From Hypanus sabinus (taxonomy: Eukaryota), in NCBI RefSeq assembly GCF_030144855.1, contig NC_082736.1, forward strand, positions 10,230,001 through 10,294,000: DNA of 64,000 nt, read 5' to 3'. Below the pieces are notes generated by a model. It saw only the letters and a program-made list of their open reading frames with translations, had not been told where the DNA came from and made no database searches. The position numbers were made by a program, and so were the translations under genes. Positions 1,992-64,000 of the stretch are shown here, one piece after another (the first letter of the stretch is position 1; each line of letters opens with the position of its first letter).

Positions 1992-2020
1992 TTTTCTGGT
2001 GTTCGGCGTGCAGGCTGGTC

Positions 2021-2720
<700 letters not shown>

Positions 2721-3056
2721 TTTCAGCGCACCCAGCAATGGTGCATGATAAATTTTTATAATTTACAATTAATTCTATCACGGATTATACATTTTCAGTT
2801 TCATTTAATATCTAAATCACTCAGTTAAAATTTGAATGCATAATTACGGAATTGTTCCTCTAAACGAGGGAACTTATTTCTGACCCAGACGGACGGGAAG
2901 ATTAAGATCAATACAAATGCATTCAGCATTTACGGTAATCACCGTCTGTCAAAGCAGAATCGCGGCTAAATTTCAAGCGGAACAGAGAAATCGATTTCAA
3001 ATGTCAATAGATGAATACAGTAGGATCGATAAAAAATAATTAAAAGGTTGTGGACA

Positions 3057-3097
3057 CAGCTCCGTCTGTGAGGCGGTGGGTGGCTCTTAGAAGAGCC
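3057..3097 (-). terminator. Histone 3' stem-loop and HDE of H4
   Basis: Minus strand GGCTCT-TCTA-AGAGCC (3097-3082), ACCCA, then ACGGAGCTG. Confidence 0.95.
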
Positions 3098-3130
3098 TTT
3101 GTGTTGTTCTCGGGAGGAAGTGGGAGTTTT

Positions 3131-3451
<321 letters not shown>

Positions 3452-3496
3452 TCACTCAGGTCGCTGCTCAGTGACAAACCGACTGCTGATGTCTCC

Positions 3497-3552
3497 TTTT
3501 ATACACAGCGCCCCGACCTGCCCGAGAAACGCGCAGAGAGACAGAGGCGGGG
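3497..3552 (-). promoter_or_regulatory. H4 promoter (TATA, CAGGTC site-II-like element, GC box)
   Basis: TATAAAA 3503-3497, CAGGTC 3520-3515, GAGGCGGGG 3544-3552. Confidence 0.7.
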
Positions 3553-3859
3553 AGGGGAGGATACACAGTCAAGAGTGACGGACAGAGCCGAGAGCGGCCT
3601 CTCATCGTCTAGCTCCGCCTTCACTTTATTACGCCCGCCATTATCCGACACAAAGCGCTTCAGCAGAAAAAAAACTCCCTCACACACAACATACAGGCTG
3701 GAGGATTTCTGGAAATTTGCTGATTCGCCTGCTTTAAATTATAGGAAGTGCTTTTCCATTTCGCAAATACCCAAGAGGTCTCTCCCTCCCCGGCCCCATG
3801 ACCAGTGCGAGCGCCCTCACACACAGCAGTTGGTGGCCGAGGGTGCAGTCACTTCCAGT

Positions 3860-5710
3860 GATGAGAGGGTTAATTCATTAGAACGACTATTCCTCTGGGT
3901 CGCGAGGGAAATGAAAGTCCGGTCACACAAAGGAACAGGATACATAGGCAGACACAAGGATATATATACCGTACTTCTGATGTCTTCTAAAGCCCAGGTG
4001 AAGTGGTGGCTAAGGAGCTGGTGCGAGGTGGGTGGGGGCTTCACGTACAAGGATCATTGCGGTCCCGAAGGAAAGGTGAGACAGGTCCAAGGAGGAGGGG
4101 AGCCAATATGTTTTACGGTGACGTTTTTCGTGCTACACCAAAGGGTTTAAATGAGCAGGTATGAGGTCCAACAAAGTGATTTTCAGGAACTAGGTTAAAA
4201 AGCAGGACTTCCAGCATTGTAATTACGGAATTGTGGGTCAAACCTTGTGCTGGTGTGGTGAGGAAGTGACATGCGGTGCAGTTTAATATGTTGCTGAGGA
4301 ACTGATGTAGGAGGGAGGTCTTCAGATTCATGGATCAATGGGCTCCCTTCCAGTCAGGTGGGAGACCGGGACAAACAAGGCCATTTCCATCTGAATCGGA
4401 GGGGAACCAATATCCTCACCAGGATGTTTGATGGTGTTACTTGGTAGAGTTTCAACTGGAATAGCAAGTGGGAGAATGCATGAATGACAAGACAGTCTGA
4501 AAAGAACGAGGGCCAATGTCAGGCTAACAAACATGCTGGGACCGATAGGCTGAAATTAGTTTATTTCAACATTAGGAGTATTATGTTGTCGAACAGACAG
4601 GGCTGACAGCTCAACAATCCTGTGTTTCATTGTTTTACATGTGAGTGGGGTTTAACAAGAGCAGGGGTTACCCCACTGGGAATGTCACAACAAACTGGAA
4701 GGCTCATTTACAGAGGCAATCTACAGTTACACTGATAGGATTATCATACTGGCCCCCAATGACCAGTGCGGGGACTTTTTCTTCCCTAGAATTGATTGGA
4801 ACTTGCTTAATACTTAGATGCACAAGATTTCTTCATTGAATCTGAAGAGTGTTTGAAACATTATGTACAGAGCCCAACCAGAGGAGAGAACAGACAGGAG
4901 GAATTCGTTTTGGGAAATGAGCCAGGCCAGCTGACAGTGAAGAGTCAGTGAATATTCTGGGATCTTATTTTTTTTCTTAGTGATGAGGAAGAATAAAATC
5001 AGATCTTGTATGAAGGTGCTGAATTGCAGGAGGGCAGGTTAGTACGGAGTAAGACAGAAACCACGGGTCATTGATTGGGAGCAGCCACTGTCAGACAAGT
5101 CCACATCTGACATGCGGGAGCTGTTTAAAGACCAGCAGATCCAAGTTAACCAGAGAATGGAAAGGTCAACTCAAGATTAAAGGAAGACTGATGTGGTTGA
5201 AGTCAGACCAAGTGGCTGAGGTACTAAATGAGTATGTTGTGTCAATATTTACTGAGGAAAAGGAACTGAATGTCAATGAAAACAGAGTGGAGCATGCTAA
5301 TATGCAGAGACGTATTGAGATTAAGGAGGAGGTTGTGCTGGGACGTCTGAAAAGCAATAAAATGGATAAGACTCCAGGACCTGAAGGCATATATCCTGCA
5401 ATAGTGAAAGAAGCAAATGCGCAGATTGCTGGCGATTTGACAAGGACCTGTGTGTCCTTGATCACAACATGTGAGTTCCCACAGGACTCGAGTGTCGTAA
5501 ATGTTGCAGTTTTGTTCAAGAAGGGAAATAACAGAAATCCAGGAATCTATCGGCAAGGCAGCCTCATTTCAGTGGCAGAGAACCTACTGGGGAGGATATT
5601 GAGGTACAGGATTTATGCACATTTGGAAAGGCATGGCCTGCTTAGGGACAATCAGCATGGTTTTGTGTGGGCAGATCACACTTGACAAAATTGATCGAGG
5701 TTTTGGAGGT
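3860..5710 (+). mobile_element. Decayed CR1 LINE (ORF1 remnant and ORF2 5' part)
   Basis: ORF 5071-5685 has KTPGPEGIYP, VAVLFKKG, NPGIYRQGSL and QHGFV motifs of CR1 ORF2. Confidence 0.8.
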
Positions 5711-13120: not shown

Positions 13121-14019
13121 ACATCTTTGCATAGTTAGGCCAAGTTAATGAACACAGTGGCATTGAGGGCCTGAAGTGTGCTTGTATCAGTACCGAGTAT
13201 GGAACAGTTAATGCAGATGTACTTCGAGCCTGGATTAGTACATGGCACAGTGATTCAGCCATTACAGAGAAGGGCAGGACTGGTAGCTAAACATTCCAGG
13301 ATTCAGATTCAGACAGTCCAGAGGGAGGTGAATGAGGTTTAGGGAGCTGTACTGCGGATCAGGCAGAATATCACAAATTCAAGGTCATCCCAGAGGCTCA
13401 TCCAGTGAGACAATGTGGGTGGAACTCAGGAATGAGAAAGATGAAATCACTGTGATGGGATGAAACTGTAGGGCTCCCAACAGCCAGTAAGAGAGAGAGG
13501 AATAGATATGTCAGCAGGTAATGGACTGATGTAAAAACAACCGAGTACCTGTAGTGAATAATCTCTGGAAACTGACTGGGTCTCCCTTCCCACTTGAGTC
13601 TTGGTTGGGGCATTATTTGTTAAAAGTTTTCAGCAAGGTTTCCTAAAACAGTATGTGGCAGGAACAACCAGTGTTCAAAGAGAAATTAGTCAGGATTAAT
13701 GGGTCAAATAGACTAGATCAACCCAGAATGATCCTGTGACCAGTAATAGTCTGAAAATTATTCTAGTCTCCAGTGAATCTTCTAAGCTCCTGGTTGGACA
13801 AGATCAATTGTGTAATCAGGACACACCTCTGTAAACACACTGATACCATATTCCAAGCACACTGAGCTGCCAGAGCACAGCACCGGCCAGTGAGGACACA
13901 GACCAGTACAACACCCGGCTCCCTACTACAAAGTTCAAAGCTGAAAATAAAGGTATTATCAAAATACATTTCTGCATTAAATACGCAACCCCGGGATTTA
14001 TTTTCTTGTGGGCGTACTG

Positions 14020-16930
14020 CTGGTTTGTTAGAGCTGTTGGGGGGGGGGGGAGGTATAAACTAATTTGGCAGGGGCATGAGAACTGGCCTGAAAGGACAGC
14101 TGGTAAAGAAAGAAAAGATAGCATGCAGTCACGCTGTCAGGAAGAGCGAGCAGATAATAGGACATAACTGTAGCCAGCAGAGGAATGCAGAATCAATAAG
14201 GGTAGCAAATCCAATACTTGAAGTGTTATACCTCAATGCACAACGTATAAGAAATAAGGTGGATGATCTTATTGCCCTGTTACGGATTGTCATGTATAAT
14301 GTGATCATCACGGAATCACGGCTGAAAAATATTTATAGCTGGGAGCTAAATGCCCAAGTTAGACACATCAGAGGGACAGGAAGGTAGGCAATGGGTTGGC
14401 ATGGCTCTGCTGGAAAAGAATGGTATCAAATCAGTAGAAAGATGTGCCACAGGATCGGAAGATGTTGAATCATTTTGCGTAGAGTTAAAAAAAAACTGCA
14501 AGTGTGAAAGGACGTTGATGCAGTTATAAACAGGCCGTCAACAGTTGTTTGAATGTGGACCACAGATTACAACAGGAAATAGAAAAGGCATGTCAAACGG
14601 TCAATGTTATTGGAGATTTCATGGGAGATTTCGACATCCAGGTCAACTGGGAAAATCAGATTGGAAATAGATCTCGAGAGTGAGTTTGCTGAATGCCTAA
14701 GAGATGGCTCTTCAGAGCAGTTTGTTGTTGATCCTACGAGGGAATCAGCTATTCTGGATAATGTATTATTTAATGAACAGGAGGCAATCAGGGAACATAA
14801 AGTAAAAGAACCCTTAGGAGGCAGTGATCACAGTATCACTGAGTTCAACTTGAAATTGGATAGGGAGAGAGTACAGTCTGACATAGCAATGTTTCAGTGG
14901 AGTAAAGGTAGTAACAGTGGTGTGAGAGAGGAGTTGGTTAAAGTAAATTGGAAGGAGATGCTGGCAGAGATGGCAGCTGAGCAGCAATGGTGAGAGTTTC
15001 TGAGAAAAATGAGGGAGGTGCAGGATAATTGTATTCCAGAAACAAATAAATACTCAAATGGCAAAATAGTACAACTGTGGCTGACAAGGAAGTCAAAGCT
15101 AATGTAAAACCAAAAGGGAGGGCAGAAAACAAAGAAAAAAAAATAGTCAGAATACAGAGGATTGGGAAGCTTCTGACAGCTTACAGAGAGCAACCTAAAG
15201 AGGATAAAGATTAAATATGCAAGCAAGCTAGCAAATATTATCAAAGTGGATAGTTTAAGATTTTACAAGTATGTAAAACATAACGGAGAGATGAGACTGG
15301 ATATTTGACTGCGAGAAGAATAGGCCAGATAAATACTAATGTGTTGGGGTGGGGGTGGGATGGAGATGGCAGATGAACTAAATGAGTATTTTCCATCAGT
15401 GGAAGATACTAGCTGTGTGCCAGTTGTTGAAGGGTGTGAGGGGAGAGAAGGGACTGCAGTTATTATTATTATTATAAGGGAAAGGTGCTCAAAAAGCTGA
15501 AAGCCCTGAGGTTATACAAGTCACGCTGACCAGATGAACTGCACCCTAGGGTTCTTGCAGAGTTAGCGGTAGAGATTATGTTGCCATTAGTAATGATCTT
15601 TCAAAACGTATTGGACTCTGACATGGTGCAAGGGGACTGGAAAATTGCAAATGTCACTCCACTCTTTAGGCGGCAGAAAGGAAATTATAGACCAGTCAGC
15701 CTGACCTCAGTGGTTGGGAAGATGTTGGAGTTAATTGTTAAGGATGAGGTTATAGAGTATTGGAATCACAGGACAAGTAAAGACAAAGTCAGCATGGTTT
15801 CCTTAAAGGGAAATCTTGCCTGATGAATCTGTTGGAATTCTTTGAGATTGCATGAAGGAAAAATAACGGGGATGCAGATTCTGTCATATGTTTGGGCTTT
15901 CAAAAGGCCTTTAACAAGGTGCCACACATGAGGCTGCTTACAAGGTTAATAGCCCATGGTACGGCAGGAAAGTTACTGGCGTGATTACAGCATTGGCTGA
16001 TTGGTAGAAGGCAGCAAGCGGGAATAAAAGGGTCCTGTCTGGTTGTCTGCCAGTGAGTAGTGGTGTTCCGCAGCGGTCGGTGTTGGGAACATTTCTTTTT
16101 ATGCTGTATATTGATGATTTAAATGAAAGAATAGATGGCTTTGTTGCAAGTTTGCAGATGACAAGAAGGCAGGTACTGTTCAGAAAACAGGTAGGTTGTA
16201 GAAGTACTATGACAGGTTAGGAGAATTGGCAAGACAATGGCAAATGAAATACATTGTTGGAAAATGCATGGTCGTGCACTTTAGTAGTAGAAATAAACGT
16301 ACCGACTATTTTCCCAATAGGGAGAAAATCCAAAAATCTGAGATGCAAACGGACTTGGGAGTCTTTGTGCAGACCAACCGAAAGATAACTTGCAGGTAGA
16401 GTCGGAGGTGAGGAAGGCAAAAGCAATGTTAGCATTCACATCAAGCGGTTAGAATACAAGAGCAGGGATGTGATGCTGAGACTTTTTTAAGGCATTAGTG
16501 AGGCCTCACCTTGAGTATTGTGAAGAGTTTTGGGCTGCTCATCTAAGAAAAGATGTGCTGGCATTGGAAAGATTCCAGACGAGGTTCACAAGGATGATTC
16601 TGGGAAAGAAGCAGTTATCATACGAGGAACATTTGATAGCTCTGGGTCTGTACTCACTGGAATTTCGAAGGATGGGGGTGGGGGGGGGGAATATAATTTT
16701 GAATGTTGAGAGGCCTGGACTGAGTAGATGTGGAAAGGATGTTTCCTATCTTGGGGGAGTCTAGGACTAAAAGGCACAACCTCAGGATAGAGGGGTGTCC
16801 ATTTAAAACAGAAATGCGGAGAAATTCTTTAGCCAGAGTGTGCTGAATTAGTTCAATGTATAGCCACAGGCAGCTGTGGAGGCCACATCCTTGGGTGTAT
16901 TTAAGGTAGAGCTTGATAGGCTCATGATAG
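14020..16930 (+). mobile_element. CR1 LINE ORF2 relic (endonuclease and RT, many frameshifts)
   Basis: LYLNAQRIRNK, LGGSDH, WKIANVTPLF, NYRPVSLTSVVGK, RPHLEYC motifs in order. Confidence 0.9.
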
Positions 16931-19900
16931 GACATGGCTCGCTTCTCCACTCTGCACTGAACTAAGCATCTGTGCACAAACTCTCTTTGAGCATTTCAGT
17001 TCAATACAAAATTTGCTTGTGCTTATTGTTTGCAGGATTTGTCTGTCCTTCTGCACATTGGGTGTTTGATGGTCTTACTTTATTTGTGGATTTTTTGGCT
17101 TTCTTTGTTTTATGGCAACCTGTTTGAAACAAACCTCAAAGTTGTAGAATGTATACGTACTTTGATAATAAGTTTACTTTGAACTTTGATTCAAAAACCT
17201 GATGCTTGAGGGATCAAATAAGGACACAAATTTAACAAAACTTAAAACTGATGCTCCTGTAGTTACAGGCCAGGATGCAGAAGAGTGGAAAATGATAAAT
17301 ATTCTTCCTCTTTTTAAGAACTGCAATAGGGACAAAAAGGGAAACTGTACCCTGGTGACTCTTATGTTAAGTGGGAGGGATATTATTAGAAAAGATATTT
17401 AAGGATGGATCAGCTCAGAATTTATAAGGCATTGGTCCAATCACACTTGGAGTATTGTGAACAGTTTTGGGCACTTATCTAAAAAACTACATGCTCACAT
17501 AGGAGAAGGTCTAGAGGAGGTTCACAAAAATTATCATGGCAATAAAAGGGTTAATGAACAAGGATTGTTTGATGGCTTTGGGCCTGTACTCTCTGGGCTT
17601 TAGAAGAATAACGGAATCTCATTGCAACCAATCAAATATTGAAAGGTCTAGAATGGAGTGGGGAGGGTATTTCCGATAGTGGGGCAGTCTGGGACCACAG
17701 GGCACAGCCTCAAAATACTAGGACATACCATTATAACAAAGATAAGGAGCAATTTCCTGAGTAAAGAGTAGTGAATTTGTGCTGCCTATGTCAGGATGTT
17801 GTTCACTGACTAGAGCTCAGCGTTTATCACCATCATTCCCACAGTCCTGATCAATAAGCTACAGAACCTAGTCCCTCTGCAATTGGATCCTCGACCTCCT
17901 AACCAGGAAACCACAATCTGTGTGGTTTGGTGATAATCCACACAGATTGTGTGGATTAATGGAGATGGGCTAACCCCTATTGGCATCAATGGATCTGGAG
18001 TTGAGAGGGTAAACAGCTTTAAGTTTCACAGCAGCAACATACCCGAAGATCTCACGTGGTCTGTACGTACCTGCTGATTGGTGGAAAAGGCACAACAGCA
18101 CCTCTTTCACTTCAGATTACTAAGGAAGTTTGCTATGGGCCCCCAAATCCTAAGAAATTTCTTCAGGGGCACAATTGGGAGCATCCCCACTGGCTAGTAT
18201 GGGAACTGTACCTCCCTTAATCGCAGGATTCTGCAGAGTGTGGCGCGAACAACCCAGCGCATCTGTAGTTGTGAACTTCCCATGACTCAGGACATTTACA
18301 AAGACCAGTGTGAGAAAAGGGCCCGAAGGATCATTGTGGACCCAACTCACTTCAAGCACAATTTATTCCAGCAGCAACCATCCAGGAAACGGGTACTGCT
18401 GCATAAAAGACAGGACCAACAGGCTGCTGGACAGCTCCTTCCACCAGGCTATCAGACTGATTAACTCACGCTGATCTGAGGGAACATCTATGTACATTGA
18501 CTGTCCTATTTATTAACAATTATTATAAATTACTATGATAGCACATGGCATATTTAGATGGAGACATAACATAGATTTTTACTCCTCATGTACATGAAAG
18601 ATGCAAGAAATAAAGTCAATTCAAATTCAAATATCTCTTCTTTGCTGAGGATCAACACTGGCCCTGATGCACCTCAAGAATGTGCAGTTAGTCAACTGCT
18701 CTACTCCCTCTATAGCCATGACTATGTGACTAAGTATAGCTCAAATGCAATCTATAAATATGCCTCATAGAACCATTGTTGGCAGAATCTCAGATGGAGA
18801 TGATTGGACATACAGGAGTGGGATATACCAGTTAGTTGAGTGGTGTCGCAGCAACAACCTTGTGCTCCATGTCAGTAACAGAAAAGAGCTGATTGAAGGA
18901 AGGGTAAGAAGAGGGAACATGAACCAATCCTCATACAGGGATCAGAAGTGGACAGCGAACGATTTCAAGTTCCTGGGTGCCAATATCTCTGAGGATCTAT
19001 TGATGCAGCTACAGTATAAAGAAGGCAAGGCAGCAGATATATTTCATCAGGAGTTTGCAGATATTTGGTTTATCACTTTAAAACACCCAAAAGCTGCTGT
19101 AGATGTATTCTATATATATTATTTAAACTTTGCTCTATTTTAATCTACTTTATATACATATTCATATCCATATATACACACATACTGTAACTTATTTTGA
19201 TATTATCATGTACTCCATTGAACTGCTGCTGCTAAATTAACAAATTTCCGGATAAAAGTGTTTCAGAGGGTTTAAAAATCTGTCATGATCTCTGATTCCT
19301 TGCAGAATGGGGCAGCAGATGAGATGGGCCAAATGGCCTAATTCTGCTCCTGTGTCTTATGGTCCAATGGTCCAGGAGCAGCTGCAGGACATTTCAAAGG
19401 GAAGGTTGAACAGCTGGACATCGTGGTGGACAGTGCATGTTGGTTATTGCAATGTAGGGAGGAGGAGGGATGTGGTCCTGTGCAGTGAATTTAGAAAAAT
19501 AAGACAGAAACTAAAAACTAGTCAGCTCTATATTACTCCCAGTGACACTTGTTAGTGCAGGGAGATATAGACAGATACCACTGATGAATGTGTGGCTGAG
19601 GAGCTGCTGCAGCGGGCAGAATACAGGTTTCATGGATCAATGGGTCAACTTCTAGGGATGGGTAGGCAGAAACTATTCAGTCCCCAGGGTCTTCTAGGGA
19701 AGGAATCGTTTTCTCAATCCTGAAACAGCACGGAATAGTTTTGACGTGACAGGATGGAGGTTGAAAGGGTGAGCTGATGGAGGTGGATAAAATTATGTGA
19801 GGCATACAAGGTTTAGAGTGACAGGGACTGTTTCCCGTGGTGTGGCTGCCAAAAGCTAAAGGGAATTGTTGTAAGGTGAGGGGGTTGCTTTTAAGGGGAA

Positions 19901-21319
19901 CTGAAGGGTAAATATTTGACACAGAGAATAGCCGGTATCCCAAACGGGCTGCCAGAGGAGCTGGTAGAGGCAAATACACACAAAGCCTCTGTTCATGAAC
20001 ACTTCCCTGGAACCTGTCATTACTGTGTTCATCCTGCCCTGGTTTAACTCCCCGATGCTGGGTCCATTGTTGTTTTCCATCTGTATGAACGATCTGGATG
20101 AGAATGTGGTAAACTGGATCAGCAAGTTTGCAGATAACACCAAGATTAGTGGCATGGTGGACAGCAAAGATGGCTAGCAAATCTTGATGTGGGATTTGGA
20201 CCAGCTGGAAAAATGAAGGAGGTTACAATCTAGAACGCACTGCCTGTGGGAGTGGTGCAGGACCATCTGAAAGAGCATTTGGATCATCAGTACAGGGTAG
20301 GAGATAGACCAAGTGCTGAGTTAGTGCAGACAGATACTTGATGGTCAGTATACACATGCAGAAAACACTGACTGTGAAAGCTCAGTGGGAACCTAAAACA
20401 CAGAACTTCAGGATGGACTTACCAAAAACACTCAGAACACAGGACAATCGATTTTTAAACAACAACACACACAAAATGCTGGTGGAACACAGCAGGCCAG
20501 GCAGCATCTATAGGGAGAAGCGCTGTTAATGATTCGGGCTGAGACCCTTCGTCAGGACGAAGCAAAAGGAAAGATAGTAAGAGATTTGAAAGTACTGGGG
20601 GTAGGGGGAAATGCAAAATGATAGGAGAAGACCGGAGGGGTGGGATGAAGCTAAGAGCTGGAAAGGTGACACGTCCCATTCCCATTCTGATATGTCTATC
20701 CATGGTCTCCTCTATTGTCAAATTGAATCCAAACTCATGTTGGAGGAACAGCACCTTATATACCGGCTGGGTAGCCTCCAAGCTGATGACCACATTGACC
20801 TGCATGTGGCATCACAGAGAGACAGGGTTGTCTGTTGTACTTGCCTTGTCAGCCAAAGAACTGCGACTCATTAGAATTAGACAAAACTGATTAAAGGCAG
20901 ATTGAAAGGGGATCTAAAGGGTACATACTTCACACAGAGAATAGCTGCTCTCCTAAATCAGCTGCCAGAGGAAGTGTGGGGGCAGAAACCCACAAAGTTT
21001 CTGTTCATTAAAACTTCTCAGGAGCCTGACATTCACTGTGCACATCCTGCCCTGGTTGAACCGCCCAGAATAGAGTCAGTGATTTATACAGAACTGAAAC
21101 CGTCCCTGCGGTAAAACTCATCCAGGCCGACCTGAACTCGTCCCATTCGCCTGCATTAGACCCGTGTCCCTCTCAACCTTTCCTATCCACGTAACTGTGC
21201 AAATATGGTTTAAATACTGTACCTGAGACAGAGAGCCGGTGCGGTGAGACGCTGACAGACACTCACTGTTCCGAGGGCAGGAAGAGGAGAGGCCATTCCC
21301 ACAGTGGAGCCAAAACCCA
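15319..21319 (+). repeat. Left arm of an inverted segmental duplication
   Basis: Colinear reverse-complement match to 53813-64000 (excluding the Gypsy insertion) across many unrelated repeat junctions; left limit set only by the window end of the other arm. Confidence 0.97.
17790..19250 (+). mobile_element. Two Rex1/Babar-like LINE fragments
   Basis: TIVGRISDGD...LVEWCRSNNL, FKFLG motifs; AATAAA plus short tandem tail at about 18610-18630. Confidence 0.7.
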
Positions 21320-35284: not shown

Positions 35285-36580
35285 GCTGCCCCCCTCACTC
35301 AACTCCCTGCAGTGTGCGGACCGTCCCAACCGCGCAACAGACGACGCCATTGCCATCAACCTCGACCTGACCCTAACCCACCTGGACAAAATAAAAGACA
35401 GACACGTTCGGATGATGTTCATAGACTTCAGTTTAGCATTCGACGCAATCATCGCTCAGAAACTGATTGGAAATCAGAGCCTATTGGGTCTGTACACCTC
35501 CCTCTCCCACTGGAACCTAGACTTCCTGACGGAGACCTTTGTCAGTTCGGACCGGGAGCAACACCATCACACTGAGCACGGAGGCCCCCCGGGGCTGTGA
35601 GCTCCTTCCAGTGCTGTTCACTCTGCTGACTCACGATTGTTCTGCAACACACAGCTTGAACCACATCATCAAGTTCGCCGATGACACGACTGTGCGGGGT
35701 CTCATCAGCAAGAACGAGTCAGCTTACAGAGAGGAGGCGCAGCGGCTAACGGACTGCTGCAGAGCCAACAACCTGTATCTGAACGTGAACGAATCAAAAG
35801 AGATAGCTGTTGACTTCAGGAGAGAACGGAGCGACTACTTCCGGCTGACGTCGACGGCTCCTCGGCAGAGGACGTTAAGAGCACCAAATTTCTTGGTGTT
35901 CACCTGGCGGAGAATCTCACCTGGTCCCTCAACACCAGCTCCATAGCAAAGAAAGTCCAGCAGCAACTCTACTTCCCGCAAAGGCTGAGTAAAGTCCATC
36001 TCCCATCCCACATCCTCATCACATTCTACAGGGGTTGTATTAAGAGCATCCTGAGCAGCTGCATCCCTGCCTGGTTCGGAAATTGCACCATCTCGGGTCG
36101 CAAGACCCTGAGCGTATAGTGAGGTCAGCTGAGAAGGTCATCGGGGTCTCTCTTCCCGCCATCACGGACATTTACACTACATGCTGCATCCGCTAAGCAA
36201 ACAGCATCATGAAGAACCCCATGCACACCTCATACAAACTCTTTGCCCTCCTGCCGTCTGGGAAAAGGCACCGAAGCATTCGGACTGTTACGACCAGACT
36301 TTATAACAGTTTCTTCTCCCATGCAATCAGACTCCTCAATACTCAGACCTGGACTGACACCTTACTTCCCTATTGTCCTGCTTATTAATTATTCTAATGC
36401 CTGCACTGTTTTGTGTACTTTATGCAGTCTTGGGTAGGTCTGTAGTCTAGTGTAGTTGTTGTTTATTTTTCTCTGTGTTGCTTATTACATAGTTCAGTCT
36501 AGTTTTTGTACTGTGTCATGTAACACCATGGTCCTGAAAAACGTTGTCTCATGTTTACTGTGTACTGTACCAGCAGTTAT
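35285..36580 (+). mobile_element. Rex1/Babar LINE 3' half
   Basis: [25 protein letters not shown] motifs; 3' UTR shared with 47110-47400 and 52870-53185. Confidence 0.9.
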
Positions 36581-51879: not shown

Positions 51880-52077
51880 AGATGTGCTGATACGAGCAAC
51901 AAAAAAGAGGATGAATCTTAGGGTGGTATGTGGTGACACGTGTAAACATTGACAGTATATTTACATTGAACTTTATACTTCATAGAGCATGTCTTGTGAG
52001 GATATGTTGAGGAAGGGAGCAGTTTTCTGTTTGGAGGGAGTAGGATGAGACGTGACTTGAAAGAGGTATACAAGATG

Positions 52078-53188
52078 CGGACTGACTGGGAGAGCTCAGT
52101 CAGTCCAGATCGGGAGCAGCATCTCCAACACCATCACACTGAGCACGGAGGTTCCCCAGGGCTGTGTGCTCAGTCCACTGCTGTTCACTCTGCTGACCCA
52201 CGACTGTGCAGCAATACACAGCTCGAACCATATCATCAGGTTCGCCGATGAGACGACCGTGGTGGGTCTCATCAGCAAGAACGGCGAGTCAGCACACAGA
52301 GAGGAGGTACAGCGGCTAACGGACTGGTGCGGAGCCAACAACCTGTCTCTGAATGTGAACAAAACAAAAGAGATGGTTCCTGACTTCCGGAGGGCACGGA
52401 GCGACCACCCTGCGCTGAACATCGACAGCTCCTCGGTAGAGATCGTTAAAAGCATCACATTTTTTGGTGTTCACCTGACGGAGAATCTCACCTGGTCTCT
52501 CAACACCAGCTCCATAGCCAAGAAAGCACATCAGTGTCTCTACTTTATGCGACAGCTGAGAAAAGTCCATTTCCCAACCCCTTCATCACCACATTCTACA
52601 GAGGATGTACCAAGAGCTCCTGAGTCCGAAAAGAGCAACGATAGTAAAGTCAGCTGAGAAGATCAACAGGGTCTCTCTTCCCGCTATTACAGACATTTAC
52701 ACTACACGCTGCACCCGTAAATCCAATGACACTGTGAATGACCCCACGCACCCCTCATACAATATTTTCTCCCTCCTGACATCTGGAAAAAAAATACCAA
52801 AGCATTCGGGCACTGACGACCAGACTGTGCAACAGCTTCTTCCACCAAGCCATCAGAACCTTTAATACTCTGCGTCTAGACTGACATCTGCATCATTTAT
52901 TATTATATTGAAATTTGTCCTCTGCTGTGACTACTGTCTTATTTATTAATTGTACTACCCTGCACTGTTTAGTGCCCTTTATGTAGTCCTGTGTAGGTCT
53001 GTAGTCTAGTGTAGATCTTGTGTTCTCTTACATAGTATAGTGTGGCCTTGTGTTGTCTCACTTAGTCTGGTGTATTTCTGTCCTGTTTCATGAAGCACCA
53101 TGGTCCTGGAGGAACGTTATTTCGTTTATACTATGTACTTTTATACTATGTAGTTTCTGGTCGAAATGTCAATAAAAAGCGACTTGAC
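52078..53188 (+). mobile_element. Rex1/Babar LINE 3' part
   Basis: ORF 52166-52657 LSPLLFTLLTHDC...RFADETTVVGLI; ends AATAAAAAGCGACTTGAC. Confidence 0.9.
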
Positions 53189-53812: not shown

Positions 53813-54474
53813 TGGGTTTCGGCTCCACTGTGGGAATCGGCCTCTCCTCTTCCTGCCCACGGAACAGTAAGTGTCTGTCGGCGCCTCACCGCACCGGCTC
53901 TCTGCCTCAGGTACAATATTTAAACCATATTTGCACAGTTACATGGATAGGAAAGGATGAGAGGGACACGGGCCGAATGCAGGCGGTTGGGACGAGTTCA
54001 GGTCGACAACTTGGTCGGCGTGGATGAGTTTTACCGAAGGGACGGTTTCAGTTCTGTATAAATCACTGACTATTCTGGGCCGTTCAACCAGGACAGGATG
54101 TGCACAGTGAATGACAGGTTCCTGAGAAGGTTTAATGAATAGAGACTTTGTGGGTTTCAGCCCCCACACCTCCTCTGGCAGCTGATTTAGGATAGCAGCT
54201 ATTCTCCGTGTGAAATATGTACCCTTCAGATCCCCTTTAAATCTGTCTTTAATCAGCTTTGTACAATTCTAATGAGAGGCAGTTCTTTGGCTGACAAGAC
54301 AAGTACAACACACAACCCTGTCTCTCTGTGATGCCACATGCAGGTCAATGTGGTCATCAGCTTGGAGGCTACCCAGCCGGTATAAAAGGTGCTGTTCCTC
54401 CAACATGAGTTTGGATTCAATTTGATAATAGAGGAGAACATGGATAGACATATCCGAATGGGAATGGGACGTGT

Positions 54475-54689
54475 TGTGGCGACCCATTTCCTAGCGTATC
54501 CGAACCAACTCACAATTAGATAGCCTACGGGGGTTTGCGAGCACAGAGCTTTGGAGCCTCTGCGCCATGGGGGGCCGGTTGACAGAGGCTTAAAAGTGAG
54601 GCTGAAGTTTTCGAATAAAGTTTTTTCCTTCGACTGCAGTTACCGACTTCGTGTCGTAATTTTAGCGCTGCGTGTAGCACACCGCTACA
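54475..54689 (+). repeat. 5' LTR (215 bp)
   Basis: TGT...ACA, AATAAA at about 54614; 4 differences from the 3' LTR. Confidence 0.97.
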
Positions 54690-54691
54690 AT

Positions 54692-54705
54692 TGGTGACCC
54701 CGACG
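54692..54705 (+). promoter_or_regulatory. Primer binding site for tRNA-Trp
   Basis: TGGTGACCCCGACG is complementary to the tRNA-Trp 3' end ...CGTCGGGGTCA-CCA. Confidence 0.9.
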
Positions 54706-54729
54706 GTCCAAACGATTTTTGGACCAGAA

Positions 54730-55419
54730 ATGACCGACGCCGCCTCTGTTCATGCGGTTTCGTTGAAACTGCCAGGTTTCTGGACACAGCGCCCGGACCT
54801 ATGGTTCCAGCAAGCCGAAGCCCAATTCCACGTTCGCCAGATCACCTCAGAAGACACCCGCTACTACTATGTGGTGAGCTCCCTCGACCAGGACACAGCG
54901 GCCCAGGTCGCGGAGTTCGTACAGTCGCCCCCGGCAGACGGCAAGTACACGGAATTCAAAGCCCTGCTCCTCAGGACTTTCGGACTCTCACGGCGCAAGC
55001 GGGCTGCCCGTTTACTGCACCTGGATGGCTTGGGCGACAGACCTCCATCGGCTTTAATGAATGAGATGTTGTCTCTCGCCGACGAACACACACCCTGCCT
55101 CATGTTTGAGCAGGCATTCCTGGAGCAGCTGCCCGAGGACATCCGCCTGCTGCTGTCCGACGCGGATTTCAGTGACCCCCGGAAGGTGGCAGCCCGGGCG
55201 GACTTGCTGTGGAACGCCAAAAAGGTGAGCGGGGCGTCCATCGCACGGATATCTCAGCCCCGCTCCCGGCAGCAAACCAGTCCAGGCCCGGCCGCAGAGC
55301 CCGCTAACCCCCGGCCCAATGAACACTGGTGCTTCTACCACCAGCGGTGGGGTGCAGAAGCCCGCCGTTGTCGCCCGCCCTGCAAGTTCCCGGGAAACGC
55401 CAGGGCCAGCCGCCGCTGA
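54730..55419 (+). CDS. gag: Gag (229 aa, open frame) with CHCC knuckle
   Basis: VSLKLPGFW...WFQQAEAQF N-terminus; CFYHQRWGAEARRCRPPC = C-X2-H-X9-C-X3-C. Confidence 0.9.
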   Translation: MTDAASVHAVSLKLPGFWTQRPDLWFQQAEAQFHVRQITSEDTRYYYVVSSLDQDTAAQVAEFVQSPPADGKYTEFKALLLRTFGLSRRKRAARLLHLDGLGDRPPSALMNEMLSLADEHTPCLMFEQAFLEQLPEDIRLLLSDADFSDPRKVAARADLLWNAKKVSGASIARISQPRSRQQTSPGPAAEPANPRPNEHWCFYHQRWGAEARRCRPPCKFPGNARASRR

Positions 55420-55449
55420 TGGCTACGGCGGCTGGCCATCGGGATAGCC
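55392..55449 (+). promoter_or_regulatory. -1 programmed ribosomal frameshift signal (slippery heptamer and stem/pseudoknot)
   Basis: G GGA AAC in gag phase, 5-nt spacer, 12-bp stem 55404-55415/55426-55437, loop GGCTA complementary to TAGCC 55445-55449. Confidence 0.85.
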
Positions 55450-58419
55450 TCCTGTATGTGTGGGATAGAAGGTCGGGACGCCGGTTTTTGGTCGATACTG
55501 GGGCTGAGATCAGCGTTTTACCTCAAACGAGTTACGACACCCGCAGCAGGGCACCGGGTCCCCCCCGAGGGCCGTGAATGGCAGCACCGTAAGGACCTAT
55601 GGCACCCGCCAGGTGCAGCTACAGTTCGGCTCCAGCCAGTTCACGTGGGACTTCACACTGGCCGCCGTAGCCCAACCGCTTCTGGTTGCGGATTTTTTGC
55701 GGGCTCACAGCCTGCTGGTCGACCTGCCCAGGAAGAGACTGGTACACGCCGAGACCTTTCAGACGTTCTCCCTGGGTGCAGCCCAGTTGCCGGCCCCTCA
55801 CCTCGGCTCCATCACGCTGTCCGACAACGACTTAACCAGGGTCCTGGCGGAGTTCCCATCGGTTCTGGCACCGCAGTTCACAGCAGCCATGCCCAGGCAC
55901 GGCGTACAGCACCACATCCCGACCCAGGGACCACCCCTCCATGCCCGTGCTCGGCGGCTTCCCCCGGACAAGCTCCGACTGGCGAAGGAGGAGTTCCAGA
56001 GGATGGAGGAATTGGGGATCATCCGGCGGTCCGACAGCCCATGGGCCTCCCCCCTGCACATGGTGCCCAAAGCGACGGGGGGCTGGAGACCGTGCGGCGA
56101 CTACCGCAGGCTGAACGAGGCTACCACACCGGACCGCTACCCTGTGCCGCACATTCAGGACTTTGCGGCAAACCTGCACGGCGCACGGATCTTCTCCAAG
56201 GTAGATCTCGTCCGGGGATACCATCAAATCCCGATGCATCCTGACGACGTCCCCAAAACGGCTCTCATCACCCCATTCGGCCTTTTCGAGTTCCTCCGCA
56301 TGCCGTTCGGCCTGAAGAATGCCGCACAGACGTTCCAGCGGTTAATGGACGCGGTGGGACGGGACCTGGACTTCGCGTTCATCTATTTGGATGACATCCT
56401 CATAGCCAGCGGCAGTCGTCAGGAGCATCTGTCCCACCTCCGTCAACTCTGCGCCCGACTGAGTGAGTACGGTCTTACAATCAACCCTGCCAAATGTCAG
56501 TTCGGACTCGATACCATTGACTTCCTGGGCCACAGAATTACTAAAGACGGGGTAACCCCTCTGCCCGCTTCCCCCGACCCACCACGATCAAAGGCCTTCA
56601 GCAATTCGTAGGTATGGTCAATTTCTACCGCCGCTTCCTCCCTTCAGCTGCCCGGATCATGCGCCCCCTGTTCGCCCTGATGTCGGGTCCAATCAAGGGC
56701 ATTAACTGGGACGAGGAGTCCGCCGCCGCTTTCGTTCAAACGAAGGAAGCTTTGGCGGACGCCGCAATGCTAGTACACCCCTACTGCCCTCACAGTGGAC
56801 GCATCCAACACGGCAGTCGGTGGGGTGCTGGAGCAGCTCATCGCAGGTCGCTGGCAACCCCTGGCGCTTTTCATCAAACACCTGCGACCACCCGAGCTTA
56901 AGTACAGTGCTTTCGACCGGGAACTGTTGGCGCTGTACCTGGCAATCCGGCATTTCAGGTACTTCCTAGAAGGTCGGCCCTTCACCGCGTTCACGGACCA
57001 CAAACCGCTTACCTTTGCGTTTACGAAAGCATCCGACCCCTGGTCATCCCGCCAGCAACGCCACCTGTACTACATCTCTGAATACATGACGGATGTCCGG
57101 CACGTCTCGGGTAAGGACAATGTCGTGGCGGATGCGCTCTCTCGCCCTACCGTTCATGCCCTTTCCCAAGGGGTAGACTTTGAGGCACTGGCAGAGGCGC
57201 AGCAGGCGGATGAGGAGATTCCGAGTTACAGGACCGCAGTCTCCGGTCTGCAGCTCCAGGACCTCCCCGTGGGCCCAGGTGAGAGGACCCTACTCTGTGA
57301 CGTCGCCACCGGCCAGCCCCGTCCAGTCGTCCCGACAGCATGGCGGCGCCGCGTTTTCGACTCCATTCATAACTTGGCGTAACCCTCCATCCGGACAACT
57401 GTCCGGATGGTTTCCAGCAGGTTCGTTTGGCACGGACTCCGCAAACAGGTCAGTGAATGGGCCAGAACGTGCATGCACTGCCAGACGGCCAAGGTGCAGC
57501 GGCACACCAAAGCCCCACCGCAGCAGTTCCATCCCGCCCACCGGCGTTTCGACCACATTCATGTGGATATCGTGGGCCCCCTGCCAGTGTCGCGGGGAGC
57601 GCGTTACCTCCTGACTATCGTGGACAGGTTCACAAGATGGCCAGAGACAGTCCCGCTCACCGGCACCACCTCCGAATCTTGCGCCCGAGCCCTGATCGCC
57701 ACCTGGTTATCTCGCTTTGGTGTACCAGCCCACATTACCTCCGACAGAGGCGCCCAGTTCACCTCCAGCCTGTGGTCAGCTATGGCCAGCCTTTTGGGGA
57801 CTCAGCTGCACCACACAACTGCCTACCACCCACAGTCGAACGGGCTAGTGGAGCGTTTCCACCGTCACCTGAAGTCGGCCCTCATGGCCTGCCTGCGAGG
57901 AGCCAACTGGGCGGACGAGCTTCCCTGGGTCCTACTCGGCATCCGCACAGCGCCCAAGGACGACCTGCACGCCTCGTCGGCCGAATTGGCCCCTGGTCGT
58001 CCCCGGGGAGTTCCTACCAGCCCCAAGGGTGCAAGAGGAAGAACCCGCAGTAGTCCTGGGCAGACTACGCGAGAAGCTCGGTAACCTGGCCCCCATACCC
58101 ACTTCACAGCATGGGCGGCACCCGACCTGCGTACCCAAAGACCTACAGAACTGTAAGGGGCGGGCATCGGCCACCGCTGCAGCGGCCATACGAGGGGCCG
58201 TTTATGGTGCTCCGGAACAATGGGTCCACGTTCGTGCTGGACGTTGGGGGGAAGGAGGAGGTTTTCACGGTGGACCGCCTCAAACCGGCCCATGTGGACC
58301 TGGCGCAACCGGCCGAGTTTCCGGCGCCTCGGCGCAGAGGCCGACCTCCCAAGCAGGTTCTGGCCCAGACTGTGGACATTGGGGGGTGTATCGCCGGTTC
58401 TGGTTGGGGGGGGGGGTTA
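55392..58419 (+). pseudogene. pol: pol (protease, RT, RNase H, integrase), disrupted
   Basis: LVDTGA, YLDD, DAS...YSAFDRELLA...TDHKPL, HVDIVGP/SDRGAQF/NGLVER; frameshifts near 55570, 56570, 56780, 57990 and 58155; stop at 57380-57382. Confidence 0.93.
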
Positions 58420-58634
58420 TGTGGCGACCCATTTCCTAGCGTATCCGAACCGACTCACAATTAGATAGCCTACGGGGGTTTGCGAGCACAGAGCTTTGGA
58501 GCCTCTGCGCCATGGGGGGCCGGTTGACAGAGGCTTAAAGGTGAGGCTGAAGTTTTCGAATAAAGATTTTTCCTTCGACTGCAGTTACCGACTCCGTGTC
58601 GTAATTTTAGCGCTGCGTGTAGCACACCGCTACA
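58420..58634 (+). repeat. 3' LTR (215 bp), preceded by a G-run PPT (58406-58416)
   Basis: Direct repeat of 54475-54689; followed by TSD GTGT 58635-58638. Confidence 0.97.
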
Positions 58635-61600
58635 GTGTCACCTTTCCAGCTCTTAGCTTCATCCCACCCCCTCCGGTCTTCTATCATTTTGCATTTCCCC
58701 CTACCCCCACTACTTTCAAATCTCTTACTATCTTTCCTTTTGGTTCGTCCTGACGAAGGGTCTCAGCCGGAATCATTAACAGCGCTTCTCCCTATAGATT
58801 CTGCCTGGCCTGCTGTGTTCCACCAGCATTTTCTGTGTGTTGTTGTTTAAAAATCGATTGTCCTGTGTTCTGAGTGTTTTTGGTAAGTCCATCCTGAAGT
58901 TCTGTGTTTTAGGTTCCCACTGAGATTTCACAGTCAGTGTTTTCTGCATGTCAATACTGACCATCAAGAATCTGTCTGTACTAACTCAGCAATTGGTCTA
59001 TCTCCTACCGTGCACTGGTGATTCAAATGCTCATTCAGATGGTCCTGCACCAACCCCACAGGCAGTGTGTTCCAGATTGTAACCTCCTTCATTTTTCCAG
59101 CTGGTCCACATCCCACATCAAGATTTGCTAGCCATCTTTGCTGTCCATCATGCCGCTAATCTTGGTGTCATCTGCAAACTTGCTGATCCAGTTTACCGCA
59201 TTCTCATCCAGATCGTTCATACAGATGGAAAACAACAATGGACCCAGCACTGGGAGTTAAACCAGGGCAGGATGAACACAGTAATGACAGCTTCCAGGGA
59301 AGTGTTCATGAACAGAGACTTTGTGTGTATTTGCCTCCACCAGCTCCTCTGGCAGGTCATTTGGGATACCGGCTATTCTCTGTGTCAAAAATTTACCCTT
59401 CAGTTCCCCTTAAAACCACCCCCTCACCTTATAACAATTCCCTTCAGCTTTAGGCAGCACACCACGGTAAACAGTCTCTGTCACTCTAAACCTTGTACGC
59501 CTCACATAATTTTATCCGCTTCCATCAGCTCACCCTTTCAACCTCCACCCTGTCACGTCAAAACTATTCCGTGCTGTTTCAGGATTGAGAAAATGGTTCC
59601 TTCCCTAGAAGACCCTGGGGACTGAATAGTTTCTGCCTACGCATTCCTGGAAGAAGTCCCATTGATCCATGAAACCTGCACTCTGCCCTCTGCACCAGCT
59701 CCTCAGCCTCACATTCATCAGTGGTATCTGTCTATATCTCCCTGCACTAACAAGTGTCACTGGGAGTAATATAGAGCTTACTCGTTTTGATTTTCTGTCT
59801 TATTTTTCTTAATTCACTGCACAGGACCACATCCCTCCTCCTCCCTATGTTGCTATTACCAACATGCACTGTCCACCACGATGTCCGGCTGTTCAACCTT
59901 CCCTTTGAAATGTCCTGCAGTTGCTCCTGGACCATTGGACCATAAGACACAGGAGCAGAATTAGGCCGTTTGGCCCATCTCATCTGCTGCCCATTCTGCA
60001 AGGAGTAAGAGATCATGACAGATTATTAAACCCTCTGAAACACTTTTATCCGGGAATTTGTTAATTTAGCAGCAGCAGTTCAATGCAGTACATGATAATA
60101 TGGATTACAGTATGTGTGTATATATGGATATGTATATGTATATTAAGTAGATTAAAATAGAGCAAAGCTGAAATAATATATAAATAATATATATAGAATA
60201 CATCTACAGCAGATTTTGGGTGTTTTAAAGTGACAAACCAAATATCTGCAAACCCCTGATGAAATACATCTGCTGTCTTGCCTTCTTTATACTGTAGCTG
60301 CATCAATAGATCCTCAAAGATATTGACACCCAGGAACTTGAAATTGTTCACTGTCCACTTCTGATCCCTCTATGAGGATTGGTTCATGTTCCCTCTTCTT
60401 ACCCTTCCTTCAATCAGCTGTTTTCTCTTACTGACATTGAGCACAAGGTTGTTGCTGCGACACCACTCAACTAACTGGTATATCCCATTCCTGTATGTCC
60501 AATCATCTCCATCTGAGATTCTGCCAACAATGGTTGTATGAGGCATATTTATAGATTGCATTTGAGCTATACTTAGTCACATAGTCATGGGTATAGAGGG
60601 AGGAGAGCAGTTGGCTAACGGCACATTCTTGAGGTGCATCAGGGCCAGTGTTGTTCCTCAGCGAAGAGGAGATATTTGAATTTGAATTGACTTTATTTTT
60701 TGCATCTTTCACGTACATGAGGAGTAAAAATCTACGTTATGTCTCCATCTAAATGTGCAATGTGCAATCATAGTAATTTGTACTAATTGATAATAAATAG
60801 TACAGTCAATGTACATAGAGGTTCCCTCAAATCAGCGTGAGTTAATCAGTCTGATAGCCTGGTGGAAGGAGCTGTCCAGCAGCCTGTTGGTCGTCTTTTA
60901 TGCAGCATTACTGTTTCCTGGCTGATTGCTGCTGGAGTAGATTGTGTTTGAAGTGACTTGGGTCCACAATGATCCTTCGGGCCCTTTTCTCACACTGGTC
61001 TTTGTAAATGTCCTGAGTCATGGGAAGTTCACAACTACAGATGCGCTGGGCTGTCCACGACACACTCTGCAGACTCCTGCGATTAAGGGAGGTATGGTTC
61101 CCATACTAGCCAGTGATGCAGCCAGTGGGGATGCTCCCAATTGTGCCCCTGTAGAAAGTTCTTAGGATTTGGGGGCCCATAGCAAACTTCCTCAGTCATC
61201 TGAAGTGAAAGAGGCGCTGTTGTACCTTTTCCACCAATCAGCAGAAACGTACAGACCACGTGAGATCTTCGGGTATGTTGCTGCAGAGAAACTTAAAGCT
61301 GTTTACCCTCTCAACTCCAGATCCATTGATGCCAATAGGGGTTAGCCCATCTCCATTAATCCACACAATCTGTGTGGATTATCACCAATCCACACAGATT
61401 GTGGTTTCCTGGTTAGGAGGTCGAGGATCCAATTGCAGAGGGACTAGGTTCTGCAGCTTATTGATCAGGACTGTGGGAATGATGGTGATAAACGCTGAGC
61501 CCTGGTCAGTGAACAACATCCTGACATAGGCAGCACAAATTCACTACCCTTTACTCAGGAAATTGCTCCTTATCTTTGTTATAATGGTATGTCCTAGTAT

Positions 61601-64000
61601 TTTGAGGCTGTGCCCTGTGGTCCCAGACTGCCCCACTATCGGAAATACCCTCCTCACTCCATTCCAGACCTTTCAATATTTGATCGGTTTCAATGAGATT
61701 CCCTGATTCTTCTAAAGTCCAAGAGTACAGGCCCAAAGCCATCAAACAATCCTTGTTCATTAACCCTTTTATTGCGAGGATCATTTTTGTGAAACTCCTC
61801 TAGACCCTGTCCTATGTGAGCATGTAGTTTTTTAGATAAGTGCCCAAAACTGTTCACAATACTCCAAGTGTGATCGGACCAATGCCTTATAAAGTCTGAG
61901 CTGATCCATCCTTAAATATCTTTTCCAATAATATCCCTCCCACTAACGTAAGAGTCACCAGGGTACAGTTTCCTTTTTTGTCCCTATTGCAGTTCTTATA
62001 ATGAGGAAGAATATTTATCATTTTCCACTCTTCTGCAACCTGCCCTGTAACTACAGGAGCATCAGTTTTAAGTTTTGTTAAATTTTTGTCCTTATTTTAT
62101 CCCTCAAGCATCAGGTTTTTGAATCAAAGTTCAAAGTAAACTTATTATCAAAGTACGTATACATTCTACAACTTTGAGGTTTGTTTCAAACAGGTTGCCA
62201 CAAAACAAAGAAAACCAAAAGAACCCACGAATAAAATAAGACCATCAAACACCCAATGTGCAGAAAGACAGACAAATCCTGCAAACAATAAGCACATGCA
62301 AATTCTGTAGCGTTTTGAACTGAAATGCACAAAGACAGTCTGTGCACGGATGCTTAGTTCAGTGCAGAGTGGAGAAACGAGCCATGAACAATCATGAGTC
62401 TATCAAGCTCTACCTTAAATACACCCAAGGACGTGGCCTCCACAGCTGCCTGTGGTTATAAATTGAACTAATTCAGCACACTCTGGCTAAAGAATTTCTC
62501 CGCATTTCTGTTTTAAATGGACACCCCTCTATCCTGAGGTTGTGCATTTTAGTCCTAGACTCCTCCAACATAGGAAATATCCTTTCCACATCTACTCAGT
62601 CCAGGCCTTTCAACATTTAAAATGATATTCCCCCCCATCCATCGAAATTCCAGTGAGTACAGACCCAAAGCTATCAAATGTTCCTCATATGATAACTGTT
62701 TCTTTCCCAGAATCATCCTTGTGAGCCTCTTCTGGAACCTTTCCAATACCAGCACATCTTTTCTTAGATGAGGAGCCCAAAACTCTTCACAATCCTCAAG
62801 GTGAGGCCTCACCAATGCCTTAAAAAAGTCTCAGCATCACATCCCTGCTCTTGTATTCTAACCGCTTGATGTGAATGCTAACATTGCTTTTGCCTTCCTC
62901 ACCTCTGACTCTACCTGCAAGTTAGCTTTAAGTTGGTCTGCACAAAGACTCCCAAGTCTCTTTGCGTCTCAGGTTTTTGGATTTCTCCCTATTTGGAAAA
63001 TAGTCTGTACGTTTATTTCTACTACTAAAGTGCACAACCATGCATTTTCCAGCAATGTATTTCATTTGCCATTGTCTTGCCAATTCTCCTAACCTGTCAA
63101 AGTACTTCCAGAACCTACCTGTTTCCTGAACAGTACCTGCCTTCTTGTCATCTGCAAACTTGCAACAAAGCCATCTATTCTATTTTTTTAATTCATTGAT
63201 ATATAGCATAAAAAGAAATGTTCCCAACACCGACCGCTGCGGAGCATCACTTCTCACTGGCAGACAACCAGAGAGGACCCTTTTATTCCCTCTTGCTGCC
63301 TTCTACCAATCAGCCAATGCTGTAACCACGCCAATAACTTTCCTGTTATACCATGGGCTATTAACTTTGTAAGCAGCCTCATGTGTGGCACCTTGTTAAA
63401 GGCCTTTCGAAAGTCCAAATATATGACAGGAGCTGCATTCCCGTTATCCATCCTGCGTGCAATCTCAAAGAATTCCAACAGATTCATCAGGCAATATTTC
63501 CCCTTAAGGAAACCATGCTGACTTTGTCTTTTGTTGTCCTGTGTTTCCAATACTTTATAACCTCGTCCTTAACAATTAACTCCAACATCTTCCCAACCAG
63601 TTAGGTCAGGCTGACTGGTCTATAATTTCCTTTCAGCTGCCTTCCTCCTTTCTTAAAGAGTGGAGTGACATTTGCAATTTTCCAATCCCCTAGCACCATG
63701 CCAGTTTTGAAAGATCATTACTAATGGCACCATAATCTCTACCATTAACTCTGCAAGAACCCTAGGGTGCAGTTCATCTGTTCCGGGTGACTTGTATACC
63801 CTCAGGGCTTTCAGCTTTTTGAGCACCTTTCCCTTATAATAATAATAACTGCTGTCCCTTCTCTCCCCTCACACCCTTCAACATCTGGCACACGACTAGT
63901 ATCTTCCACTGATGGAAAATACTCATTTAGTTCATTTGCCATCTCCTCCCCCCCTCCCCCCCCCCCAGCCTCAACACATTATTATTTATCTGGCCTAATC

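What the first reader, a model, noticed from the sequence alone, without database searches (positions are those of the whole stretch)
54471..58638. Young CsRn1-like Gypsy element in a vertebrate: candidate horizontal acquisition
Seen: short 215-bp LTRs differing at 4 positions (about 98% identical), GTGT TSD, tRNA-Trp PBS, Gag knuckle C-X2-H-X9-C-X3-C, no env, and much higher GC/CpG than the flanks. Established: a CHCC Gag motif with tRNA-Trp priming characterises the CsRn1 clade, described from trematodes (CsRn1, Boudicca) and insects (Kabuki). Inference: a recent invasion, possibly via a parasite. It is truly integrated, since it interrupts host duplicated sequence, so it is not contamination.
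Basis: partly seen in the sequence, partly recalled or inferred. Interest (0 to 1): 0.7.

Follow-up and report, generated by a model that had tools for sequence, protein, structure and literature searches.

The report
Old ray retrotransposon family, young copy
This is a broken, fairly young copy of a CsRn1-type jumping gene in a stingray, from a family that has many older relatives in the same genome and in other rays, so it is not a recent invader from a flatworm parasite, though the family likely reached early rays long ago from a marine invertebrate.

Summary
The anatomy is confirmed: 215-bp LTRs with 4 mismatches, GTGT target duplication, tRNA-Trp-type primer site, CHCC Gag, no env, and an empty paralogous site. 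It meets the published CsRn1 features; pol is broken. The interpretation mostly fails. CsRn1 elements are already published in teleosts. The host is a stingray whose genome holds about a thousand close candidates plus older subfamilies (LTR divergence up to 14.5%, dS up to 0.6, dN/dS about 0.2). A sister copy sits in an RNF185 intron and is predicted at the same junction in Hypanus and Hemitrygon, so the lineage likely predates their split. All 12 named ray Gag hits form one clade with this copy. No non-ray relative exceeds 69% Pol identity; the one trematode is at 49% and is rejected as sister (p-AU 9e-44). CpG richness tracks copy age. What remains of the idea is an ancient transfer: ray elements group with crab and whipworm elements, not with teleost ones (vertebrate monophyly rejected, p-AU 0.006). 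Verdict: new member of a known clade, long inherited in rays; ancient transfer probability about 0.55; recent parasite-borne invasion about 0.04.

The parts
54471..54474 (.). left target-site duplication GTGT
   Evidence: single GTGT at the empty paralog
54475..54689 (+). 5' LTR, 215 bp, TGT...ACA; AATAAA at 54614
54692..54703 (+). primer-binding site of the CsRn1 (tRNA-Trp) type
   Evidence: against the consensus in PMC2582038 section 6; no host tRNA-Trp was aligned here
54730..55419 (+). gag, uninterrupted, DUF7041 plus CHCC knuckle at 55330-55383
55392..55437 (+). predicted -1 ribosomal frameshift signal: GGGAAAC (55392-98) and a 12-bp hairpin (55404-37)
   Evidence: z -2.0; 10 of 200 shuffles as good; heptamer in 31 of 41 copies; pol in the -1 frame; function inferred
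55399..58405 (+). pol (protease, RT about 56063-56539, RNase H about 56780-57085, integrase core about 57539-57832, GPF motif), broken by five short deletions near 55570, 56570, 56780, 57990, 58160 and a stop at 57380
58406..58419 (+). polypurine tract (G run)
58420..58634 (+). 3' LTR, 4 mismatches to the 5' LTR
58635..58638 (.). right target-site duplication GTGT
15318..21319 (-). inverted host paralog of both flanks, with the empty site at 20669-20672

Best explanation
This is a pol-broken copy of a CsRn1-type Gypsy LTR retrotransposon that inserted into a stingray histone/tRNA cluster and belongs to a high-copy lineage with much older relatives in the same genome and in other rays, a lineage that likely entered early rays from a marine invertebrate long ago. 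It works like other CsRn1 elements: transcription from the 5' LTR, Gag with a CHCC knuckle, Pol likely made by a -1 frameshift at GGGAAAC plus hairpin, reverse transcription predicted to be primed by tRNA-Trp and the G tract, and integration with a 4-bp duplication. Shown: anatomy, integration, breaks, many copies, old subfamilies under purifying selection, one ray clade. Inferred: frameshift, priming, orthology of the RNF185 insertion, absolute ages, and the ancient transfer (about 0.55 on its own). After insertion this copy decayed and was multiplied by host segmental duplication.
For: 976 LTR and 1,191 RT first-look candidates, all 40 scored in each search at 99% or more; 13,815, 19,586 and 14,266 first-look candidates with three ray Gag queries (not copy numbers). 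16 of 16 independent close copies have a 4-bp TSD and 1-9 LTR mismatches. Of 20 further copies, internal identity to the window runs from 96% to 76%; of the 15 whose LTR pairs were aligned, 8 differ by 7.8-14.5%. Between subfamilies dS 0.25-0.61 and dN/dS 0.16-0.28 in 4 pairs. RNF185-Gag fusion models in Hypanus and Hemitrygon share the junction; the Hemitrygon protein's best of 115 matches in this genome (95%, next 91%) is the copy just behind RNF185 exon 2. Gag tree: window plus all 12 named ray hits form one clade, 99/84 (83 in the mixture-model quick tree). Pol identity over 885 aa: crab cluster 69%, skate 68%, Trichuris 66-69%, teleosts 57-63%, trematode 49%. AU tests reject ray plus trematode (p 9e-44) and ray plus skate plus teleost (p 0.006). 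CpG o/e falls with LTR divergence, rho -0.52, p 0.003, n 31. 4 of 4 laid sequencing runs also carry the host flank repeats.
Against: No DNA of other rays or of crabs was available, so element dS against host-gene dS across species was not computed. Only 33 of 240 RT hits and 13 of 72 Gag hits carry an organism name, and the closest Gag sister of the ray clade (P0127) is unnamed. The nodes skate plus stingray (85/75, 92/87) and crab plus batoid (93/92) are not starred; the RT-only tree is unresolved; the Gag AU test did not finish. Ancient paralogy with loss can also break vertebrate monophyly. RNF185 orthology rests on protein models, not on Hemitrygon DNA flanks. Copies were picked as best hits, so they are not an unbiased age sample.
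Confidence: 0.8

Rival explanations
1. Recent horizontal invasion from a flatworm or other parasite.
For: 98% LTR identity, high CpG. One invertebrate-metagenome run holds 40% of the element's words, and in it the element is better covered relative to the flank SINE bin than in the two large runs. Parasites of rays are likely poorly sequenced (recalled).
Against: That run also covers host flank repeats (28 of 30 bins). Old subfamilies and the RNF185 copy. No named trematode among 240 RT and 72 Gag hits; Dicrocoelium Pol 49%, rejected as sister. The young subfamily nests inside the ray clade.
Confidence: 0.04
2. Purely vertical descent from an early bilaterian, with several ancient CsRn1 lineages lost differently in different hosts; no transfer is needed.
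For: The clade is spread over many phyla in the hits: cnidarian, flatworm, mollusc, echinoderm, nematode, arthropod, fish. Deep nodes are weak.
Against: Stingray-to-crab Pol path (0.54) is no longer than stingray-to-skate (about 0.57, summed from the tree), and ray Gag is closer to crab-cluster Gags (57-69%) than to teleost Gags (40-50%). No shark among the named hits, which is weak evidence.
Confidence: 0.3
3. The lineage is old in rays, but the young subfamily also moved horizontally between ray species.
For: Runs of nine coded organisms hold 6-54% of the sampled words; pieces at about 98% identity in two runs.
Against: Hypanus and Hemitrygon differ at only 11 of 247 residues in the shared RNF185 copy, so a few percent divergence is what plain inheritance among stingrays would give. 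Organism names are coded.
Confidence: 0.12

Closest known systems
CsRn1 clade of Ty3/Gypsy: CsRn1, PwRn1, AgCR1-14, Boudicca (PMC2582038; passages and section 6 read)
   Same: CHCC Gag, tRNA-Trp-type primer site, 4-bp TSD, TGT...ACA ends, gag/pol in -1 overlap as in 9 AgCR elements, GPY/F motif, no chromodomain or env.
   Different: Host is a ray, whereas that paper calls the clade invertebrate-specific; the one trematode Pol tested is only 49% identical; target sites here lean to RNNY (14 of 16), whereas that paper saw no preference.
Teleost CsRN1 families (PMC4746887, PMC11117352; passages read)
   Same: Vertebrate host, 4.3-4.6 kb, 174-302 bp LTRs, Pol of 1,061-1,069 aa, no env.
   Different: Teleost-named hits form their own clade (100/100) at 57-63% Pol identity, not sister to the ray lineage; 39 full-length copies over ten pufferfish genomes against about a thousand close candidates here. 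That my teleost hits are the published CsRN1 families is inferred, not matched by sequence.
Decapod (Petrolisthes, Portunus) and Trichuris DUF7041-Gag Gypsy proteins
   Same: Nearest named non-ray relatives; one Pol clade with the ray elements, 98/99 and 100/98.
   Different: About 30% Pol and 30-40% Gag divergence, far from a recent donor; predicted proteins, not described elements.

Membership tests
CsRn1 clade | Gag CHCC motif CX2HX9CX3C | tested here: met
   also in 52 of 72 Gag hits; definition from PMC2582038
CsRn1 clade | PBS of the published tRNA-Trp-type consensus | tested here: met
   same site in 16 of 16 independent close copies
CsRn1 clade | 4-bp TSD and TGT...ACA-type LTR ends | tested here: met
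   (16 of 16)
CsRn1 clade | PR DT/SG, RT YXDD, RH DAS, IN HHCC and DDE, GPY/F, order PR-RT-RH-IN | tested here: met
   the zinc-binding region is interrupted by the stop at 57380 in this copy; DDE rests on the Pfam rve match
CsRn1 clade | No chromodomain; env absent in most members | tested here: met
   no room between integrase and the 3' LTR
CsRn1 clade | Pol groups with the named references CsRn1, Kabuki, Boudicca against other GyDB clades | not testable with these tools
   reference sequences and other-clade outgroups were not obtainable; trees hold only search hits, with one trematode protein
Recent horizontal transposon transfer | Near-identical element in a distant host | tested here: not met
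Recent horizontal transposon transfer | No older relatives in the recipient lineage; patchy distribution | tested here: not met
Horizontal transposon transfer (any age) | Element tree conflicts with host tree | tested here: met
   vertebrate monophyly rejected, p-AU 0.006; ancient paralogy not excluded
Horizontal transposon transfer (any age) | Element dS below host-gene dS between the two hosts | not testable with these tools
   no DNA of other eukaryote genomes; only proteins

The most novel reading that the evidence does not exclude
A CsRn1 retrotransposon crossed from a marine invertebrate lineage (decapod or whipworm side) into early rays, independently of the teleost CsRn1 elements, was then inherited through the ray radiation, grew to thousands of copies in stingrays, and supplies an LTR splice acceptor that fuses Gag to host genes such as RNF185.
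Probability: 0.5. Interest if true: 0.42.

Novelty: new member of a known kind. Interest (0 to 1): 0.25.

Why it matters
As a single copy it is ordinary. The family is of modest interest: my searches found no paper naming CsRn1 in cartilaginous fishes, it appears to be abundant in a 4-Gb stingray genome, and it may be a dated case of an invertebrate-to-ray transfer. Shared insertions would also be useful markers for ray phylogeny and substitution rates.

Tried and rejected
Contamination: rejected by the empty paralog and dispersed copies. GC/CpG as a sign of foreign origin: rejected, it decays with copy age. RT-only tree: unresolved. Gag AU test and careful mixture tree: unfinished, not rerun. 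Window-versus-copy dN/dS is inflated by out-of-frame ends and was not used. No RNA holder listed with certainty; small-share rows not used as evidence. Atlas search gave only DUF7041 clusters. The 50%-identity library search showed no closer relative but represents close ones by one protein; 10 of its 150 hits were looked up, giving one trematode. PMC2774666 held none of my terms. Domestication of the RNF185-Gag exon: not shown; 11 of 247 differences against 1 of 96 in the host part, and the case was found because it is open. Earlier scan findings: none by sequence or by the full word set; those by 'CsRn1' and 'Gypsy' concern other elements. Trees left out rows: one search dropped Amblyraja and Knipowitschia as too short; one search dropped 10 rows listed in its output.

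Full report
Observation. The LTRs are 54475-54689 and 58420-58634, 215 bp, TGT...ACA, with 4 mismatches (98.1%; Poisson 95% range 0.5-4.8% divergence), flanked by GTGT. The primer site matches the CsRn1 consensus of PMC2582038 section 6, the Gag has CX2HX9CX3C, and Pfam finds DUF7041, RT, RNase H and integrase but no env or chromodomain in the 7 frames sent. Both flanks continue into one inverted paralog at 15318-21319 with a single GTGT, so the copy is integrated. Gag is open; pol has five short deletions and one stop. GC is 60.8% and CpG o/e 0.85, against 44.9% and 0.52 for the rest of the window, parts of which are as CpG-rich.

Host and context. The window is a histone H1/H3 and tRNA cluster in a 4.04-Gb genome. 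The nearest named Gag is from Hypanus sabinus at 97%, and RNF185 exons of this genome read like the Hypanus protein: the host is a dasyatid stingray. Four of 20 fetched close copies are segmental duplicates of this very insertion, so it inserted after a duplication now 7% diverged and before duplications under 1% diverged.

How it works. Shown: LTR-PBS-gag-pol-PPT-LTR layout, 4-bp duplication in 16 of 16 independent copies, pol in the -1 frame to gag. Inferred: Pol is made by a -1 frameshift at GGGAAAC followed by a 12-bp hairpin (z -2.0, 10 of 200 shuffles as good; heptamer in 31 of 41 copies, hairpin behind it in 30 of 31; no compensatory changes were tested); tRNA-Trp priming follows from the published consensus. 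Four of the 16 independent close copies keep a pol frame over 1,000 codons, and LTR pairs differ at 1-9 sites, so the subfamily was active recently; this copy is a decayed product.

Is it a recent invasion? No. (a) CsRn1 is already reported in teleosts: medaka, stickleback and Tetraodon (PMC4746887, passages) and Takifugu (PMC11117352, passages); PMC4131045 lists it in a table of a frog study (passages). (b) The genome holds 976 LTR and 1,191 RT first-look candidates and 13,815-19,586 Gag candidates; these are not copy numbers. Twenty further copies range from 96% to 76% internal identity; 8 of the 15 LTR pairs aligned differ by 7.8-14.5%; four subfamily pairs have dS 0.25-0.61 and dN/dS 0.16-0.28. 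(c) Hypanus and Hemitrygon gene models both join RNF185 exon 2 to the LTR end and gag at the same point; the Hemitrygon protein's best match here is the copy behind that exon (95%, next 91%). Orthology is inferred from this. A mitochondrial dating puts crown Hypanus at about 40 Ma (bioRxiv 10.64898/2026.02.25.708098, passages), so that insertion is likely older than that; scaling LTR divergence (1.9% against 7.8%) would make the window copy roughly 10 My old, a rough figure. (d) Named Gag hits are 12 rays (Hypanus, Mobula 78-80%, Pristis 60-72%, Hemitrygon, Narcine 53%) and one crab of 72; with the window they form one clade, 99/84, 83 in the quick mixture tree. (e) CpG o/e falls with LTR divergence (rho -0.52, p 0.003, 31 copies), so it marks youth, not foreign origin. 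(f) Of 240 RT hits, 33 carry an organism name and none is a trematode or a shark (both searches scored only the top 8,000 or so candidates). A Dicrocoelium Pol found via searches is 49% identical and is rejected as sister (p-AU 9e-44). (g) Twenty of 24 listed runs hold part of the element. The 4 laid (three coded organisms and an invertebrate metagenome) all also cover the host flank repeats, 28-30 of 30 bins.

Was there an older transfer? Over 885 Pol residues the stingray family is 69% identical to a crab-cluster protein (Petrolisthes members), 68% to a skate, 66-69% to Trichuris, 57-63% to teleosts. Rays, skate, crab cluster and Trichuris form a starred clade (98/99; 100/98), teleosts a separate one, and holding all vertebrate rows together is rejected (p-AU 0.006). 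The stingray-crab path (0.54) equals the stingray-skate path (about 0.57), which fits a transfer near the origin of rays better than descent from the bilaterian ancestor. But the inner nodes are not starred, most neighbours are unnamed, rates vary, the direction is not shown and ancient paralogy is not excluded. I put it at about 0.55. A parasite route remains possible on the nematode side (fish-infecting relatives of Trichuris are recalled, not from a call), a prey route on the crab side.

Novelty. A search for 'CsRn1' with 'shark' gave 0 papers; none of the top 15 of a wider search with elasmobranch terms contained 'CsRn1'; searches were read as listings. Ray genome papers give only class totals: Gypsy/DIRS1 2.5-3.7% of five batoid genomes (bioRxiv 10.64898/2026.10.27.761883, passages), LTR 19.3% in Fontitrygon (PMC12946260, passages). 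The Squalomix preprint curated five high-copy stingray repeats in a supplement that I could not see (passages and section 7); this family may be among them, and Repbase/Dfam were not searchable. PMC10671267 (passages) gave no sawfish-stingray date. Verdict: a new member of a known clade; interest 0.25.

Noticed in passing
L051/L053/L057 (G000:C28:149405350-149414300): An older copy (LTRs 7.8% apart) lies about 0.9 kb behind RNF185 exon 2; gene models in Hypanus and Hemitrygon splice that exon into the LTR end, in frame with gag, giving a RING-Gag fusion. Possible exonisation; selection not shown. The window LTR has an AG at the same place, and a Mobula Gag model is named as an slc35g1 isoform.
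   Followed up: partly
L001-L004 (G000:C81, 9.92-11.47 Mb): Four more copies of this same insertion with 99.3-99.8% identical flanks: host segmental duplications of the cluster, not new insertions.
   Followed up: yes
window 231-2503 and 27089-51880: Histone H1 and H3 genes, a histone stem-loop and six tRNA genes: a histone/tRNA cluster, like the one described in red stingray (Squalomix preprint, passage).
   Followed up: partly
L005-L020: Target sites fit RNNY in 14 of 16 independent insertions (about 1 in 4 expected by chance).
   Followed up: no
L013: A copy with three LTRs (an extra internal one), 4.5 kb.
   Followed up: no
L033-L042: Several copies have gag and pol in one frame; they were picked by a Mobula query that reads across the junction, so they may be single-copy deletions, not a single-ORF subfamily.
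   Followed up: no
run X6 laid on window 54691-64000: An invertebrate-metagenome run holds the element and ray flank repeats: most simply ray DNA inside an invertebrate sample.
   Followed up: partly
window 52061-52657: LINE-type RT fragment (RVT_1), with diverged partners at 35526-36566 and 47109-47959.
   Followed up: no
window 3044-4150: A 368-codon open frame beside the histone genes with no Pfam match.
   Followed up: no
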